Virus record (IMG/VR): IMGVR_UViG_3300011116_001007
Reading direction: 5' to 3' (one strand)
Length of the DNA stretch: 64,000 bases
Source: a virus
Taxonomy: Duplodnaviria > Caudoviricetes
Below, in pieces: positions 10,243 through 25,725 of the stretch. The stretch's first letter is position 1. Each line of letters opens with the position of its first letter. Below the pieces are notes generated by a model that worked only from the letters and a program-made list of their open reading frames with translations, had not been told where the DNA came from and did not search any database. The position numbers and the translations under genes were made by a program.

Positions 10243-10719
10243 TTAAATGTACCAAATTTCTCGAAATCCTTCTTCCAAAGTGGGCTCTTCCCAATTGGCA
10301 ATCATATGATCAACTACTGCTTCGGGGATTATTTTCCCAGAATCATATCGATTTTGTAGTCGCCGATCCAATTCATCACGCGGCGGTGTACGGAATACCA
10401 CAGCAATGGCATAGTACTCGGGCAACATGTTGAACTTCTTTCGACGACTTGCCGCAGTGGTCGAAGTTTGATCCCACACAATATCTTGACTGGCTTCACG
10501 AGCATGCACTACATCGCCGGTCATGTGCTCCACACATTTGGGCATGACTTCTTTGAAAACTTCGCTGTAGGTCTTGCCTGCACTTTTTGCAAACTCTTCT
10601 ACATAACGATCTGTGGAAATGTATGCAGCTTCTTGCAGCCAAGTTTGATCAGAATGCCAGGTACTTTTTCCACTACCTGGCACTCCAACCAAAACGTACA
10701 ATTTACATTGTCGGTCCAT
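10243..10719 (-). CDS. P-loop (AAA_33/PNK-like) kinase
   Basis: GVPGSGKST, ISTD, WDQT motifs. Confidence 0.85.
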   Translation of the reverse strand: MDRQCKLYVLVGVPGSGKSTWHSDQTWLQEAAYISTDRYVEEFAKSAGKTYSEVFKEVMPKCVEHMTGDVVHAREASQDIVWDQTSTTAASRRKKFNMLPEYYAIAVVFRTPPRDELDRRLQNRYDSGKIIPEAVVDHMIANWEEPTLEEGFREIWYI

Positions 10720-11293
10720 TACCGTTCCTAAATCCAATTTCCCCACCTTCTTCAACAATGCGTTTTTGCACATCTTCAAACAAGATAGGAGCAAAGTCTG
10801 TGTGCTCTACACATACACAATGATAGCGTGGATCAACAACCTTGGTCACAAATTCACCAGCAGCAGGCCCTGCCTTCATTACTCTGTTGGCATGCAAGTG
10901 TCCGTGAATGTTCACACCAAAGCGACCCAACGATTCCTCGTGGATGGGTATGTGACTCAAGATCATTCCGTTCATCACATGGTATGCACGTAACTCGCGA
11001 AAGTGTTCACGGTACTCATCATCTCGAAAGATGTCATGATTACCGCGGATCAAAACTTTGTCACCGTTCAACCTACGCATGATACCTAAGGACTTGCGGT
11101 TGATAACAACATCGCCTAAATGGTATACCTTGTCTGTGGGCCGGACACGTTCGTTCCAGGCCTTGACCATGGCCTCGTCCATTTCCTCAGGCGTGTCCCA
11201 AGGACGTAATTTGGTCACACCGTCGTTGCGAGTGAAATGGCACACACCTTTGTGTCCAAAGTGTGTGTCTGATACTAAAAATACTGATGGCAT
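10703..11293 (-). CDS. calcineurin-like metallophosphoesterase
   Basis: SDTHFGH, LGD, GNHD, HGH motifs. Confidence 0.9.
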   Translation of the reverse strand: MPSVFLVSDTHFGHKGVCHFTRNDGVTKLRPWDTPEEMDEAMVKAWNERVRPTDKVYHLGDVVINRKSLGIMRRLNGDKVLIRGNHDIFRDDEYREHFRELRAYHVMNGMILSHIPIHEESLGRFGVNIHGHLHANRVMKAGPAAGEFVTKVVDPRYHCVCVEHTDFAPILFEDVQKRIVEEGGEIGFRNGNGPTM

Positions 11294-11311
11294 AATGTCC
11301 TCTTTGTGTGT

Positions 11312-11340
11312 ATTATACAACAATGAACATTACTGGTCAA
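11312..11340 (-). promoter_or_regulatory. sigma70-type promoter
   Basis: TTGACC-N17-TATAAT. Confidence 0.8.
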
Positions 11341-17558: not shown

Positions 17559-17570
17559 ATTTATATGATA

Positions 17571-17659
17571 ACCATATGGAAACACACTAAAAGTAATCTA
17601 ACATACAAGAGCGCCGTGCGAACGTATGCTAAAAGGTATCTAATGTGTTTGCATATGGT
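17571..17659 (-). repeat. ACCATAT-stem element, copy A
   Basis: ACCATATGCAAACACATT..AGTGTGTTTCCATATGGT. Confidence 0.8.
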
Positions 17660-18551
17660 GAAAGGACTGAGAATACATCCTCTCCAACAACACCTCGGAC
17701 ATTATTGTACACCTTGCGAGTATACTTTCTTCCGACTTCCACCCGGCCCTATTTCTAGGTATCCTGGTCTGCTGTCAGCATCGCCGTTTAGAGACAGGCA
17801 GTAGTCTTGACGCTGTATGCTATTCTACGCTTTCTATTCCGTTGACCTTGCGAGCCATTCAAGTGCGCTAACACCTTACGAAACTTCCTGCATAAACTAA
17901 TGTCACCTTGCGAGCTTCATTAGACTTGGTTCTCTTGCGAGCCAAGTATTAGATGCTTTTCACATACAACCGAGTCAGTCTTTGCGTTTTAATCGTTAGA
18001 AGGAGTTGAACCTTCAGTCTATTTCTTAAAAGGAAATCGGCCTACCATTAGCCTATAACTGAACCTACTGCGATGTGCTGACTCAGTTGCTGCATACTCT
18101 TTTGGAATACACAATACAACACACCACGTACCTTTTGTCTTGCGAACTACTCAGTCGTCTTTTGCGATCGGTGTGTCCCCGCCTTTCGACAGACCCACTA
18201 ACCACTCAAACTGCATACGAGCCCTTGGGTGCAACCCCTCGGACAAATACGCTACCCTTTCTCATACTAATTAACTGGACTGGTTTAGTTGTGAAGTCAG
18301 CACCACCTGTTACTTTCCATCGACTCAAGTTCCCCTTGCGGGCTTGTAAATCAACGTTCTTTCCACAACATCCAGCGTCATTGTTACAACCACCGGTCTT
18401 ATCAGTGATCGCTACCTCACGGTAGTGAGCAGGCTTGCTTAAACGAACTATCTCTAGCGGAGTTATGTAGGCATACCTCCTTTGGCTGTGTCACCACAGT
18501 TATTCTTCATAAACCAGCAAGCTGGCTTATAGGACGTTAAACCGCCCTTGA
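17656..18551 (-). ncRNA. probable GOLLD large ncRNA
   Basis: ~890-nt non-coding unit from a promoter to ACCA, at least 6 CGCAAG tetraloop hairpins, 3' GGATGTATTCTCAGTCC similar to my recollection of GOLLD ends, tRNA-array context; Rfam not run. Confidence 0.65.
17991..18062 (-). tRNA. tRNA-Lys(TTT)-like, embedded in the large ncRNA
   Basis: D-arm GGCT-AATGGT-AGGCC, loop CTTTTAA, T-arm GAAGG-TTCAACT-CCTTC; bulged acceptor, no CCA. Confidence 0.65.
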
Positions 18552-18557
18552 AATCTT

Positions 18558-18586
18558 ATTGTAGCATCAAAGTTGATCCTTGTCAA
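18558..18586 (-). promoter_or_regulatory. sigma70-type promoter of the large ncRNA
   Basis: TTGACA-N17-TACAAT. Confidence 0.8.
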
Positions 18587-18596
18587 CTTGAGTTTT

Positions 18597-18680
18597 ACCA
18601 TATAGAAACACACTAGCCTGCAGGACTACTAATAGCTCACGGGTACGCCGCTACTACTAGGTAATGTGTTTTTATATGGT
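18597..18680 (-). repeat. ACCATAT-stem element, copy B
   Basis: ACCATATAAAAACACATT..AGTGTGTTTCTATATGGT; starts with the tRNA-Lys ACCA. Confidence 0.8.
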
Positions 18681-20476: not shown

Positions 20477-20560
20477 TGGTGGAGACAGATGGATTCGAAC
20501 CACCGCGCTATTAAGAACAGATTTACAGTCTGTCGCAATCGACCACTCTGCCATGTCTCC
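20477..20560 (-). tRNA. trnY: tRNA-Tyr(GTA)
   Basis: Class II cloverleaf. Confidence 0.95.
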
Positions 20561-21375: not shown

Positions 21376-21451
21376 TGGTGCCCCAGGGGAGACTCGAACT
21401 CCCAGAATTTGGTTTCTAAGACCAACATGGCTACCGTTACATCACCGGGGC
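21376..21451 (-). tRNA. trnL: tRNA-Leu(TAG), short variable loop
   Basis: Loop CTTAGAA, 5-nt variable loop. Confidence 0.85.
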
Positions 21452-21456
21452 TGATA

Positions 21457-21679
21457 TTGAATTTGCAAGTAGTAGCACCACACTATTGCTACCATTCCCC
21501 CGAATTAACAAGCTCGAGCGGGGTTCGGTACGTCACTTGGGATACAGGTCCAGTACAGTCTCCGTTGCAGACCTCCGCAGTTGCCCGCGGGTGGGAGTTG
21601 AACCCATTAACCTTCTACTATAAAGTACCTTCGAAGAATACAGTATAGCGTGACTTTCTCTTGCTGACACTTACAAAAC
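21457..21679 (-). ncRNA. T-loop-containing RNA, copy 1
   Basis: Ordered conserved blocks shared with 22495-22680 and a terminal stem. Confidence 0.7.
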
Positions 21680-21772
21680 TGGGCCTCTGAGAGTGGAATT
21701 GAACCACCAAGGTTTTTGGAACCTTTTTGACCTACTAGTAAGGACGACTTTACCGATTCGTCTACTCAGAGA
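21680..21772 (-). tRNA. atypical class II tRNA with possible CTA (amber) anticodon
   Basis: 8-bp acceptor, D-arm GAC-GAATCGGTAAA-GTC, loop TACTAGT, long variable arm, T-loop TTCAATT, CCA. Confidence 0.55.
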
Positions 21773-21777
21773 TAACT

Positions 21778-21850
21778 TGGTGTGTGGGGGTGGGTTCGCT
21801 CACCCTTTCACTGACATACATCAGCACCGTCACTAATCCGGCTCTCACAC
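21778..21850 (-). pseudogene. degenerate tRNA-like element
   Basis: Acceptor GTGTGAG/CCCACAC + ACCA; abnormal anticodon and T loops. Confidence 0.5.
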
Positions 21851-21855
21851 ATAAA

Positions 21856-21890
21856 AGGTGGATAACAGATGCCGTAGCATCCGCTTCTCC
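21856..21890 (-). ncRNA. minihelix RNA, copy a
   Basis: GGAGAAGCGGATGC-TACG-GCATCTGTTATCC-ACC. Confidence 0.6.
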
Positions 21891-21896
21891 ATAACT

Positions 21897-21971
21897 TGGC
21901 GGTCTCAAGGGGTAACGATCCCCTTCTTCAACAGTGACAGTGTTGTGTGCGTCCATGAACACTTTGAGACC
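21897..21971 (-). tRNA. trnD: tRNA-Asp(GTC)
   Basis: Cloverleaf, G73; T-loop ATCGTTA. Confidence 0.9.
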
Positions 21972-22165
21972 AAATAAGGACAAGCTACTGGTTTCCACAC
22001 CAGCCCTTGATTGAGCGGTTACTCTGTCCATCTTTTTTATCTGGTATCTGTGTGCAGAAAGATAACTGCCTATCAGATTCAGGATTGCTCCGCTAACGGT
22101 CTTCTGCCACCGGACCTCTATCGCTAGTCAAACGCTACTTTAACGAAAGTAGTAACGGGATTCTT

Positions 22166-22280
22166 ACCATATAGGAACACACTACGTATCTTAGTCACGT
22201 GTAGTTTTGGAGGGCTACACTACAGACCCAAATAGTTAGACCGCGAATCTAACCCAACCTGGAGTATGTTCTTATATGGC
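22166..22280 (-). repeat. ACCATAT-stem element, copy C
   Basis: GCCATATAAGAACATACT..AGTGTGTTCCTATATGGT. Confidence 0.8.
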
Positions 22281-22353
22281 AAACTCATTGCGGACAGGAT
22301 TCGAACCTGCATCACCCACTAAGGGCATCCTAACCACTAGAAGACCGCGAGTT
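22277..22353 (-). pseudogene. tRNA-like element with truncated anticodon arm
   Basis: Intact D (AGTGGTTAGGA) and T (GCAGG-TTCGAAT-CCTGT) arms; anticodon arm reduced to CCC-TTAGT-GGG; bulged acceptor; GCCA end. Confidence 0.6.
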
Positions 22354-22401
22354 CCTGAGGGCAATTACTCCCCAGCACGGATGCTACCTGCAGATAACAT
22401 T

Positions 22402-22484
22402 ACCATATAGGAACACACTTTAGTAAGCCCTACGCATCCGACAAAGTTGTCACGCATCCAAAGCAAAATGTGTTTTTATATAAT
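22402..22484 (-). repeat. ACCATAT-stem element, copy D
   Basis: ATTATATAAAAACACATT..AGTGTGTTCCTATATGGT. Confidence 0.75.
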
Positions 22485-22494
22485 ACCATATAAA

Positions 22495-22680
22495 TTGAAT
22501 TTGTAAGTAGCAGCACCTCACTCATTGCTACCATTCTACCTGTATTTTCTGTGAAGCCGCGGACAGGATAGAGGTACGTAGTAATAGTAGCTACTTAGCA
22601 GTTGCCATGTTGCCGGACTCGAACCGTTGCCTCATAAGGTTTTCGACGCCTTACTTTCACTACATCTACACTTACAAAAC
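22495..22680 (-). ncRNA. T-loop-containing RNA, copy 2
   Basis: Paralog of 21457-21679. Confidence 0.7.
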
Positions 22681-22681
22681 T

Positions 22682-22716
22682 TGGTGGATAACAGATGCCG
22701 CAGCACCCGCTTCTCC
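22682..22716 (-). ncRNA. minihelix RNA, copy b
   Basis: GGAGAAGCGGGTGC-TGCG-GCATCTGTTATCC-ACCA. Confidence 0.6.
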
Positions 22717-22722
22717 ATAACT

Positions 22723-22797
22723 TGGTAGAGCATAGCGGAGTCGAACCGCTCTTAGTGGACTGAAAACCCACTGTCCTAACCGATAGACGAATGCTCC
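22723..22797 (-). tRNA. trnE: tRNA-Glu(TTC)
   Basis: Cloverleaf, loop TTTTCAG. Confidence 0.95.
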
Positions 22798-22804
22798 ATG
22801 ATTC

Positions 22805-23040
22805 ACTATATGAAAACACAATTATACAGGAACTTTGCTGATAAAATCTAATCTAGCTATGATTAGACCAATCGCCGTCATTACTGCCTACCTGTTTCGT
22901 CTTCCTCATCTTCATGGCCTAAGCCACTGATTCAGCATCTTGTAAGTGGAGGAGTAGCCAGCCACGGCGGGGCTCAAACCCATAATCCTATCACTCACCT
23001 AACGATGTAGGTAACCTGTATAATTGTGTTTACATATAGT
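22805..23040 (-). repeat. ACCATAT-stem element, copy E (26-bp stem)
   Basis: ACTATATGTAAACACAATTATACAGG..CCTGTATAATTGTGTTTTCATATAGT around a structured 184-nt cargo. Confidence 0.8.
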
Positions 23041-23136
23041 GCTCAGAACTGAATCTGAGTACACTATACAAAATCAAATTTTTAACGAACTTGCTGCACT
23101 GTGTCGATGCACTGTGCTGCTTTCTAACTAGTCTCT

Positions 23137-23165
23137 AGTATAACACCAAGTGCGATACTGGTCAA
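23137..23165 (-). promoter_or_regulatory. sigma70-type promoter
   Basis: TTGACC-N17-TATACT. Confidence 0.75.
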
Positions 23166-23233
23166 CCGGTTTTGTAAAGCCCTACAATTTGGAAGGACTT
23201 TACAAATCTTGCTGTTTTTCCCTACTTGCCGCT

Positions 23234-25049: not shown

Positions 25050-25086
25050 TACATATATAACGCGGTAGCCCAGCATCACGTTGACA
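25050..25086 (-). promoter_or_regulatory. ECF-like promoter motif, copy 1
   Basis: TGTCAAC-N16-GCGTTATATATGTA, same blocks and spacing as 25739-25775. Confidence 0.55.
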
Positions 25087-25095
25087 CAAGCCAAA

Positions 25096-25117
25096 AAGAA
25101 ACCCGCCAAAGCGGGTT
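25096..25117 (-). terminator. intrinsic terminator after tmRNA
   Basis: AACCCGC-TTTG-GCGGGTT-TCTTTT. Confidence 0.85.
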
Positions 25118-25415
25118 CTGAATTTCTGTTACGAGGTATGTCTTACCCTAAGCGGCGTTTAGGCTGCTAATGCGAACAGTTCGTCGTTTGCGTTTATAGA
25201 TTTTCTTCTTTTTACAAGGTTGCTCTTGTGCTGTCCACTCTGTTACTCTTTACTCTGTCGAAACCAGGGCAGGCCCATCAAAAGAACTATCGACTAACAT
25301 TCCCCCACATACTGCATTTCTGGTGTGGCTAATGCAAAAGTTCTTTTGGTGGACCTGGCGGGAGTCGAACCCGCGTCCAGAACACTTTTCTCTTTGCTTC
25401 ATACAGCAATAACTT
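25118..25415 (-). ncRNA. ssrA: permuted two-piece tmRNA
   Basis: Acceptor piece ending GGTTCGACTCCCGCCAGGTCCACCA (25347) precedes coding piece starting GGGCCTG (25276); G3:U70; tag ANDELFALAA at 25159-25191; hairpin spacer. Confidence 0.95.
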
Positions 25416-25419
25416 TTAT

Positions 25420-25725
25420 TTATCGTTGATAGCAATTACGCTCACGGTAAATCTGACCATCCGGCATCTGAATTTCTCTCCACGCTGTGCAAATGGTCTG
25501 GGGTTGTGGTACAATCACTTGCTCACGTTGAACCACAACTGGTTGTGGCTGGTTAGCATTGGCAATTACTGCTCCAGCAATACCACCAATGATCAATGGG
25601 CCAATCCAGTCATTTCTTTGTTCAACAATAACAGGTCGGTTGTCCCAATGTCGATGATCATGACGCCATTGTGCTTGGGCTGCGGTTGCTGCTAGTAATG
25701 CAATTACCAATAATACTTTTTTCAT
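25420..25725 (-). CDS. secreted protein
   Basis: Signal peptide, Gly zipper GGIAGAVIA, two Cys. Confidence 0.75.
   Translation of the reverse strand: MKKVLLVIALLAATAAQAQWRHDHRHWDNRPVIVEQRNDWIGPLIIGGIAGAVIANANQPQPVVVQREQVIVPQPQTICTAWREIQMPDGQIYRERNCYQR

What the first reader, a model, noticed from the sequence alone, without database searches (positions are those of the whole stretch)
21856..22716. Twin CCA-tailed 12-bp minihelices behind tRNA-Asp and tRNA-Glu
Seen: same 35-nt unit at 21856-21890 and 22682-22716, each 5-6 nt after the CCA of an acidic-amino-acid tRNA. The differences keep the fold (A-U to G-U; C-UACG-G to C-UGCG-G). 12 bp + N-CCA equals the acceptor+T stack of a tRNA; one copy ends ACC-U. 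Inference: RNase P/CCA-enzyme substrates, possibly chargeable or decoys for synthetase-targeting toxins.
Basis: partly seen in the sequence, partly recalled or inferred. Interest (0 to 1): 0.6.

Follow-up and report, generated by a model that had tools for sequence, protein, structure and literature searches.

The report
CCA-ended tRNA-Tyr-like minihelix gene
A 35-base RNA hairpin that looks like the top half of a tyrosine tRNA and ends in the tRNA tail CCA sits like a gene behind the Asp and Glu tRNAs of a group of uncultured lake-type phages; it is almost unchanged between them, so it is probably a working non-decoding tRNA mimic, though its job is untested.

Summary
Two copies of a 35-nt unit (window 21856-21890 and 22682-22716, minus strand) each lie 6 nt after the CCA of tRNA-Asp and tRNA-Glu. 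Each forms 12 pairs (3 bp, a 2x1 internal loop, 9 bp), a UNCG loop and an A-CCA tail (A-CCU in copy 1).

- **Family:** 24 copies in 23 viral or metagenome contigs, always 6-7 nt after tRNA-Asp or tRNA-Glu. There were none in 185,579 prokaryote species genomes, in isolated phages or in Rfam.
- **Conservation:** only four internal positions vary, and all changes keep the fold. The unit changes about 3 times more slowly per site than the homologous tRNA-Asp beside it.
- **Context:** its leader, U at -1, encoded CCA and trailer match those of real tRNA genes in 125 related arrays. In three contigs the next tRNA starts 6 nt after its CCA.
- **Likely origin:** its stems most resemble the acceptor and T stems of the phage's own tRNA-Tyr.

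Best reading: a discrete, anticodon-less small RNA, cut out and trimmed like a tRNA, that acts through its acceptor end. The decoy or charging role is untested. The main rival is a cis-acting RNase P processing mark. Earlier notes from this scan describe analogous, non-homologous CCA-ended minihelices in other phage tRNA arrays.

The parts
22682..22716 (-). Minihelix copy 2 (35 nt, ends ACCA): GGA / GA internal loop / 9-bp stem / UGCG loop / A / UCC / ACCA
   Evidence: identical to the copy in L004
22717..22722 (-). 6-nt spacer AGUUAU between the tRNA-Glu CCA and the unit (U at -1)
   Evidence: the same kind of spacer separates genuine tRNAs in related arrays
22723..22797 (-). tRNA-Glu(UUC), upstream partner of copy 2
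21856..21890 (-). Minihelix copy 1 (35 nt, ends ACCU; A at unit position 11, UACG loop)
21891..21896 (-). 6-nt spacer AGUUAU between the tRNA-Asp CCA and the unit
21897..21971 (-). tRNA-Asp(GUC) with an unusual T loop (AUCGUUA), upstream partner of copy 1
   Evidence: ARAGORN; not matched by Rfam tRNA; same type in >120 viral contigs
21685..21889 (-). About 205-nt cassette (copy 1, anticodon-less tRNA-like RNA, tRNA-like with CUA) that is present here but absent from the otherwise near-identical arrays L314 and L322
20477..20560 (-). Phage tRNA-Tyr(GUA): the tRNA whose acceptor and T stems most resemble the unit, and its likely evolutionary source

Best explanation
The unit is a small RNA gene that fills a tRNA slot in the phage's polycistronic tRNA array. 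It is an anticodon-less minihelix, probably derived from the acceptor and T arm of the phage tRNA-Tyr, with a UNCG tetraloop in place of the T loop.

Inferred mechanism: it is co-transcribed with tRNA-Glu or tRNA-Asp. Host RNase P cuts at its G1, using U at -1, the G1-C31 pair and the A-CCA that can pair with the RNase P RNA. That cut also leaves only a 6-nt trailer on the upstream tRNA. Exonucleases then trim its 3' side back to the encoded ACCA. The ACCU copy would need the CCA-adding enzyme. The product is a stable 35-nt hairpin with a free tRNA-like 3' end.

It has no anticodon, D arm or T loop, so it cannot decode. Any role must therefore run through the acceptor helix plus CCA, as a mimic, competitor or substrate for an enzyme that reads only that end. 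Candidates are a host factor that attacks CCA tails or acceptor stems, TyrRS, or the CCA-adding enzyme.

Shown: existence, fold, conservation, tRNA-like context and tRNA-Tyr likeness. Inferred: transcription, processing and the acceptor-end function.
For: - **Repeat and fold:** a sense-strand-specific fold with three G.U pairs.
- **Family:** 24 copies in 23 contigs, all 6-7 nt after tRNA-Asp or tRNA-Glu. 23 of 24 end ACCA. Sequence downstream of the CCA differs in at least 10 ways, so conservation stops at the CCA.
- **Variation:** only 4 internal positions vary. The two in the stem are G.U<->A-U and the other two are in the loop.
- **Rate:** 0.044 differences per site in the unit, against 0.144 in the adjacent homologous tRNA-Asp. 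The unit is 94-100% identical between arrays whose same-anticodon tRNAs are 70-76% identical at the median.
- **tRNA-gene context:** in 125 related arrays 2132 of 2170 tRNAs encode CCA, the modal spacer is 6 nt, U is at -1 in 76%, and AGUU is the commonest spacer start. In L006 and in L039/L318 the next tRNA starts 6 nt after the unit's CCA.
- **Cassette behaviour:** it moves as a cassette like the tRNAs do.
- **tRNA-Tyr likeness:** tRNA-Tyr scores 19 of 26 at acceptor, T-stem and discriminator positions, against 7.8 +/- 3.0 for 252 tRNAs. The top 7 are all Tyr, and the G.U wobble in the T stem is shared.
- **Enrichment in slots:** hairpin+NCCA within 13 nt upstream of a tRNA gives 12 distinct sequences, against 0-2 for most control tails; the frame-shifted tails CAA and ACC re-detect the same elements.
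- **Biochemical precedent:** tetraloop-capped hairpins with U-1 and RCCA are cut at +1 by bacterial RNase P RNA (PMC3035440). A minimal hairpin+CCA is a weaker-binding substrate of the CCA-tail nuclease Cas12a3 (PMC12851939).
Against: - There are no expression or end-mapping data.
- No pair shows a change on both sides, so the fold rests on thermodynamics and one-sided changes only.
- The helix is interrupted by a 2x1 internal loop and lacks a T loop, so it is not a canonical minihelix.
- About 90% of contigs with the same odd tRNA-Asp lack the unit, so it is dispensable.
- Arrays are mosaics in which some tRNAs are also 99-100% identical, so part of the conservation could reflect recent cassette spread.
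- No CCA-adding enzyme or synthetase gene was found in the window or in five partial related records.
- The tRNA-Tyr likeness amounts to one hit among about 21 isoacceptor families.
Confidence: 0.55

Rival explanations
1. Cis-acting processing mark. The hairpin+CCA exists only to give RNase P a cleavage site 6 nt behind tRNA-Asp or tRNA-Glu where no real tRNA follows closely, so that the upstream tRNA gets a short, trimmable trailer. The released hairpin is a by-product.
For: In 21 of 24 copies the next ARAGORN tRNA is 72 nt or more away. The position directly behind a tRNA is fixed. Hairpin+RCCA suffices for RNase P (PMC3035440). An earlier scan note on another phage reached this reading.
Against: Any hairpin+RCCA would do, yet 31 of 35 positions are invariant, including the internal loop, and the unit evolves more slowly than the neighbouring tRNA. 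Many other tRNAs in the window are followed by long non-tRNA stretches without such a mark. About 90% of arrays with the same tRNA-Asp manage without it. In three contigs a tRNA follows 6 nt later, which would make the mark redundant.
Confidence: 0.22
2. Neutral relic. The unit is an internally deleted tRNA-Tyr gene that spreads passively with the cassette recombination of these mosaic arrays and has no function.
For: It resembles tRNA-Tyr. Arrays exchange cassettes at CCA-AGUU junctions. The unit is absent from most relatives.
Against: It is kept intact behind at least five different upstream tRNAs and with at least ten different downstream contexts. It has a lower substitution rate than a functional tRNA next to it. 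All changes preserve the fold, and the T-loop replacement is a stable UNCG tetraloop closed by a flipped C-G pair, which looks like remodelling rather than decay.
Confidence: 0.1
3. DNA-level site, for example the target or footprint of a recombinase or homing endonuclease that shuffles tRNA cassettes.
For: The same block sits at cassette junctions. Homing endonucleases are known in phage tRNA clusters (T4 SegB, PMC2330249, listed).
Against: No associated ORF lies next to the unit in any contig examined. Three G.U pairs make the palindrome good only on the tRNA-sense RNA strand. Both ends coincide with tRNA-type RNA ends.
Confidence: 0.05
4. Intrinsic terminator or attenuator hairpin, or the start of a tiny ORF (an ATG lies at -2 to +1, giving MEKRVLRHLLST...).
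For: It is a stable hairpin. Copy 1 is followed by UUUUAU three bases after the stem. The ATG is conserved in frame in all copies.
Against: No terminator is predicted in 21400-23200. There is no U tract in most contigs, and a tRNA follows 6 nt downstream in three. There is no Shine-Dalgarno sequence. Three of the four substitutions would be non-synonymous, and the reading frames diverge right after the CCA.
Confidence: 0.04

Closest known systems
Synthetic tRNA minihelices and model hairpin substrates (acceptor + T stem; e.g. pATSerUG and its GAAA-tetraloop form, PMC3035440)
   Same: About 12 stacked pairs, G1-C pair, U at -1, N73-CCA 3' end and no anticodon. The tetraloop-capped versions are cut by bacterial RNase P at +1.
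   Different: Those are laboratory constructs. This unit is genome-encoded, conserved, carries an invariant 2x1 internal loop and a UNCG loop, and its processing is untested.
Phage tRNA-Tyr of the same arrays (window 20477-20560)
   Same: 5' GGAGA start, T stem GGUG/CAUC with the same G.U wobble, 3' UGU..UCC-A-CCA, discriminator A.
   Different: D arm, anticodon arm, variable arm and T loop are missing. There are two extra bases on the 5' strand and one on the 3' strand, and the loop-closing pair is flipped to C-G.
Non-tRNA stable RNAs of phage tRNA clusters: T4 RNAC and RNAD (function still unknown, PMC9697503)
   Same: Small non-decoding RNAs encoded among phage tRNA genes.
   Different: The T4 RNAs are much longer (over 100 nt, from memory). 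No sequence relation was found.
Natural non-tRNA RNase P substrates: precursor of C4 antisense RNA of phages P1/P7, pre-4.5S RNA (review PMC4919922)
   Same: RNase P cuts non-tRNA RNAs that have a helix next to the cleavage site, and the C4 example is phage-encoded.
   Different: C4 acts by antisense pairing and 4.5S in the SRP. This unit has only a 4-nt loop and no obvious target, and it sits in a tRNA slot.
tRNA-like small RNAs made by tRNA enzymes (mascRNA/menRNA; PMC8457004, PMC9777231)
   Same: Non-decoding tRNA mimics released by tRNA-processing enzymes and carrying CCA.
   Different: Those are eukaryotic and cloverleaf-like, and their CCA is added after transcription. This unit is a bare hairpin with encoded CCA in a phage.
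CCA-ended minihelices noted by this scan in other phage tRNA arrays (AI notes)
   Same: Hairpin + N + CCA in a tRNA slot of a phage array.
   Different: No sequence similarity to this family. This family is tied to Asp/Glu, resembles tRNA-Tyr and is nearly invariant.

Membership tests
tRNA (Rfam RF00005; cloverleaf adaptor) | Cloverleaf with anticodon arm, D arm and T loop | tested here: not met
   ARAGORN and Rfam give no gene at either copy, even at E<=1. At 35 nt there is room for one hairpin only.
tRNA (Rfam RF00005; cloverleaf adaptor) | Acceptor end: G1-C72-type pair, unpaired discriminator, CCA-3', and tRNA-type leader and trailer | tested here: met
   G1-C31, A32, CCA in 23 of 24 copies. 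The 6-nt leader with U at -1 and the AGUU trailer match those of genuine tRNAs in 125 arrays.
Acceptor/T-arm minihelix (as defined for synthetic substrates) | About 12 coaxially stacked base pairs ending in N73-CCA | tested here: met
   12 pairs, 100% paired in all copies, interrupted by a 2x1 internal loop.
Acceptor/T-arm minihelix (as defined for synthetic substrates) | T loop (7 nt, T54-Psi55-C56 type) closing the helix | tested here: not met
   The loop is a 4-nt UACG, UGCG or UAUG. It is comparable only to the tetraloop model substrates.
Acceptor/T-arm minihelix (as defined for synthetic substrates) | Substrate of RNase P, CCA-adding enzyme or an aminoacyl-tRNA synthetase | not testable with these tools
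   This needs in vitro assays. Only literature precedent is available (PMC3035440).
Intrinsic terminator | GC-rich hairpin directly followed by a U tract | tested here: not met
   No terminator-like site in 21400-23200. Tails differ between contigs, and a tRNA follows at 6 nt in three.
CRISPR repeat or solitary repeat unit | The same unit repeated with spacers in host or phage arrays | tested here: not met
   One or two copies per contig, 826 nt apart here. No true match in 185,579 species genomes under an exact-anchor pattern.
Any Rfam 15 family | Score at or near a family threshold | tested here: not met
   No hit over either copy at gathering score or at E<=1.

The most novel reading that the evidence does not exclude
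The phage makes a natural, sequence-specific tRNA-Tyr acceptor-arm mimic, possibly chargeable by TyrRS. It would act as a decoy or sink for a host defence factor or enzyme that recognises only the acceptor helix plus CCA, such as a CCA-tail nuclease, CCA-pyrophosphorylating toxSAS, MenT-type nucleotidyltransferase or the CCA-adding enzyme. That would make it an RNA counter-defence of a kind not yet described, and a living example of the 'operational code' minihelix.
Probability: 0.15. Interest if true: 0.85.

Novelty: new variant of a known kind. Interest (0 to 1): 0.58.

Why it matters
Minihelices (acceptor plus T stem plus CCA) have so far been laboratory tools and hypothetical ancestors of tRNA. 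A conserved, genome-encoded one in phage tRNA arrays would be a new class of non-decoding tRNA mimic. Several bacterial defences are now known to attack the tRNA CCA tail or acceptor stem (Cas12a3, toxSAS, MenT). A cheap RNA that presents only that end is therefore a plausible phage counter-measure and is directly testable. Even if it is only a processing module, it shows how phages punctuate long tRNA operons. It also adds to growing evidence, from this scan and, that CCA-ended hairpins are a recurrent and undescribed component of phage tRNA arrays.

Tried and rejected
- **Terminator:** no U tract and none predicted.
- **Small ORF from the conserved ATG at -2:** no SD, mostly non-synonymous changes, divergent C-termini.
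- **Known RNA family:** none in Rfam.
- **Cellular or cultured-phage homologue:** all 17 genome hits are chance matches in coding DNA. Nothing in 50,697 phage records.
- **Wider family, upper-stem pattern:** a scan of IMG/VR gave only chance GCN-rich coding matches.
- **Wider family, loose lower-stem pattern:** it was flooded by an unrelated 41-nt sequence from about 110 contigs of roughly 80-160 kb from one sample, and needed a tighter gap.
- **Wider family, covariance model:** model R1 found only ordinary tRNAs with the same leader and trailer. blastn-short found no intermediates.
- **General excess of hairpin+NCCA in the window:** 7 on the sense strand against 8 on the antisense strand, so there is no excess. 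The signal appears only when the hairpin must lie just upstream of a tRNA.
- **Other slot hairpins:** several turned out to be the 3' parts of tRNAs that ARAGORN missed. The remaining analogues (L265, L183, L225) do not resemble a tRNA of their own array.
- **Phage-encoded CCA-adding enzyme:** none in the window ORFs or in five partial related records, which is uninformative because these are fragments.
- **Technical failure:** a fuzzy-regex search timed out.

Full report
**Setting.** The window carries a phage-type RNA island on the minus strand.
- ARAGORN tRNA genes between 11.9 and 26.6 kb and a permuted tmRNA at 25068-25439. Rfam adds a GOLLD RNA at 17664-18127.
- Flanking ORFs include a family B DNA polymerase, ThyX, GTP cyclohydrolase I, sugar-modifying enzymes, and a kinase plus metallophosphoesterase pair next to the array.
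- No whole genome is held for the window, and no isolated phage is close.

**Observation.**
- The plus-strand repeat at 21857-21899 and 22683-22725 is 43 nt long and 95% identical. The core pattern occurs exactly twice, against none in 100 shuffles.
- On the minus strand each copy reads: tRNA 3' CCA, spacer AGUUAU, then a 35-nt unit. The unit can be written GGA-GA-AGCGGRUGC-URCG-GCAUCUGUU-A-UCC-ACCN.
- RNAfold gives 3 bp, a 2x1 internal loop, 9 bp and a tetraloop, at -18.1 and -17.5 kcal/mol on this strand. The opposite strand gives -11.1 and -6.4 kcal/mol.
- Three G.U pairs explain the strand asymmetry.
- Folded together with its tRNA, the unit and the cloverleaf fold independently.

**Family.** Pattern scans found the unit in nine IMG/VR contigs and thirteen metagenome contigs.
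- That makes 24 copies in 23 contigs counting the window. Some metagenome and IMG/VR records are duplicates of each other.
- There were no true hits in 185,579 prokaryote species genomes; all 17 matches were chance hits in unrelated DNA. There were none in 50,697 phage records and none in Rfam.
- Every copy lies 6-7 nt after tRNA-Asp(GUC) or tRNA-Glu(UUC). The upstream tRNAs are of at least five different sequences.
- 23 of 24 copies end ACCA. The window's copy 1 is the only ACCU.
- Sequence downstream of the CCA differs in at least ten ways, so conservation stops at the CCA.
- Only four internal positions vary: position 9 (G.U to A-U), position 11 (A-U/G.U) and two loop positions.
- All cells pair, but there is no double-sided covariation. 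The structure therefore rests on energy, strand asymmetry and one-sided changes.

**Is the conservation meaningful?**
- Between arrays whose same-anticodon tRNAs are 70-76% identical at the median, the unit is 94-100% identical.
- The clearly homologous odd tRNA-Asp directly upstream is a better yardstick. Over 15 haplotype pairs the unit shows 0.044 differences per site, against 0.144 for the tRNA.
- The arrays are mosaics. Some tRNAs are also 99-100% identical.
- The window carries a cassette of about 205 nt at 21685-21889, made of copy 1, an anticodon-less tRNA-like RNA and a CUA tRNA-like gene. The otherwise near-identical arrays L314 and L322 lack it, and the junctions fall at CCA-AGUU repeats.
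- Part of the identity may therefore come from cassette spread. Even so, the unit is kept intact in many different contexts.

**tRNA-slot context.**
- In 125 related arrays, 2132 of 2170 tRNAs encode CCA. The modal short spacer is 6 nt, U is at -1 in 76%, and AGUU is the commonest spacer start.
- The unit's flanks are therefore those of a tRNA gene.
- In L006 and in L039/L318 the next tRNA starts 6 nt after the unit's CCA.
- Model R1 finds, besides the family, only ordinary tRNAs with the same leader and trailer.
- Hairpin+NCCA is not generally enriched in the window: 7 hits on the sense strand against 8 on the antisense strand.
- Within 13 nt upstream of a tRNA, however, there are 12 distinct NCCA hairpins, against 0-2 for most control tails. 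The frame-shifted tails CAA and ACC re-detect the same elements.
- Some of these are the 3' parts of tRNAs that ARAGORN missed. Others look like analogues, for example L265:5813, which lies 5 nt after tRNA-Glu and 4 nt before tRNA-Ile.
- Earlier notes of this scan describe similar, non-homologous CCA minihelices in other phage arrays. I treat these as leads, not as evidence.

**Origin.**
- Scored at the acceptor 5' strand, both T-stem strands, the acceptor 3' strand and the discriminator, the phage tRNA-Tyr reaches 19 of 26. The mean for 252 tRNAs is 7.8 +/- 3.0, and the top seven are all tRNA-Tyr.
- Shared features are the 5' GGAGA, the T stem GGUG/CAUC with its G.U wobble, and the 3' UGU...UCC-A-CCA.
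- The loop-closing pair is flipped to C-G under a UNCG tetraloop.
- This looks like a remodelled tRNA-Tyr top half rather than a decaying pseudogene.

**Mechanism.**
- Published work shows that tetraloop-capped acceptor/T-stem hairpins with U-1 and RCCA are cut at +1 by bacterial RNase P RNA (PMC3035440). RNase P also processes non-tRNA phage RNAs (PMC4919922).
- I therefore infer this sequence of events: co-transcription with tRNA-Glu or tRNA-Asp, an RNase P cut at G1, 3' trimming to ACCA, and CCA repair for the ACCU copy.
- The product cannot decode, so its function must use the acceptor end.
- Defences that target this end exist. Cas12a3 cleaves CCA tails and accepts a minimal hairpin+CCA, with 62-fold weaker binding (PMC12851939).
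- Two abstracts listed add further cases. The toxSAS FaRel2 pyrophosphorylates the CCA end after inspecting the acceptor stem (PMC11559606). MenT toxins extend acceptor stems (PMC10435456).
- A decoy role is therefore chemically plausible but untested.
- The retron-Eco7 and tRNA-Tyr story (PMC11555353) needs a decoding tRNA, so it does not support a minihelix decoy.

**Rivals.**
- The strongest rival is a cis-acting RNase P processing mark for the upstream tRNA. In 21 of 24 copies no tRNA follows closely. It does not explain the near-invariant sequence, and most relatives lack the unit.
- Neutral relic, DNA site, terminator and micro-ORF readings each fail on specific points. These are given under rival explanations and under what was tried and rejected.

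**Verdict.** This is a real, conserved, undescribed small-RNA module.
- It is most likely a tRNA-Tyr-derived CCA-ended minihelix that is processed like a tRNA.
- Its function is unknown but confined to the acceptor end.
- It is a new variant of the tRNA-mimic kind, and one of a recurrent class of phage tRNA-array minihelices.

Noticed in passing
window 21778-21850 (-): A tRNA-like RNA 5 nt after minihelix copy 1. It has a 7-bp acceptor stem with one A.C mismatch, a D-like arm, a 6-bp arm capped by a 4-nt loop where the anticodon loop should be, a T arm with an 8-nt loop, and an A-CCA end. ARAGORN and Rfam do not call it. It looks like a second anticodon-less acceptor-end mimic.
   Followed up: partly
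window 21897-21971 (-); L171-L287: The tRNA-Asp(GUC) has a non-canonical T loop (AUCGUUA). The Rfam tRNA model misses it even at E<=1.
   Followed up: partly
window 10246-11323 (-): Two overlapping ORFs, a P-loop kinase (AAA_33) and a calcineurin-like phosphoesterase, lie directly beside the tRNA array. The pairing resembles a polynucleotide kinase-phosphatase RNA-repair module.
   Followed up: no
L265:5405-5443 (-), L183:2047-2083, L225:6946-6983 (-): Other CCA-ended hairpins in tRNA slots of related phage arrays, unrelated in sequence. L265 has a 39-mer with a GCAA loop, 5 nt after tRNA-Glu and 4 nt before tRNA-Ile. L183 has a 37-mer with a T-loop-like loop, 6 nt before tRNA-Ile and directly after a promoter-like AT-rich stretch.
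   Followed up: partly
L173, L175, L189, L285 and L187, L204, L209, L222, L240, L287 (just after tRNA-Asp): Two further recurrent structured elements follow the same odd tRNA-Asp in contigs that lack the minihelix. One is a long hairpin starting GAGAGCCAC and closing GUGGCUCUC. The other starts AGGAU..CAGCAA and closes GAAUCCUGUU.
   Followed up: no
window 22208-22255 (-), also in L314 and L006: A conserved 44-nt hairpin ending UCCA inside the 750-nt stretch between the two minihelices. It is part of a larger conserved non-coding element.
   Followed up: no
window 17564-18680, 22159-22424, 22805-23040: Arms of the type GUGUUU..AUAUGGU recur in both orientations around structured inserts (repeat families D10, D11 and D17). 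I first mistook them for promoters. An earlier scan note reads them as a stem family with variable cargo.
   Followed up: no
L008-L122: A loose pattern scan pulled an unrelated, near-identical 41-nt sequence from about 110 contigs of roughly 80-160 kb from one IMG/VR sample (3300045988). It is probably one very abundant phage lineage.
   Followed up: no
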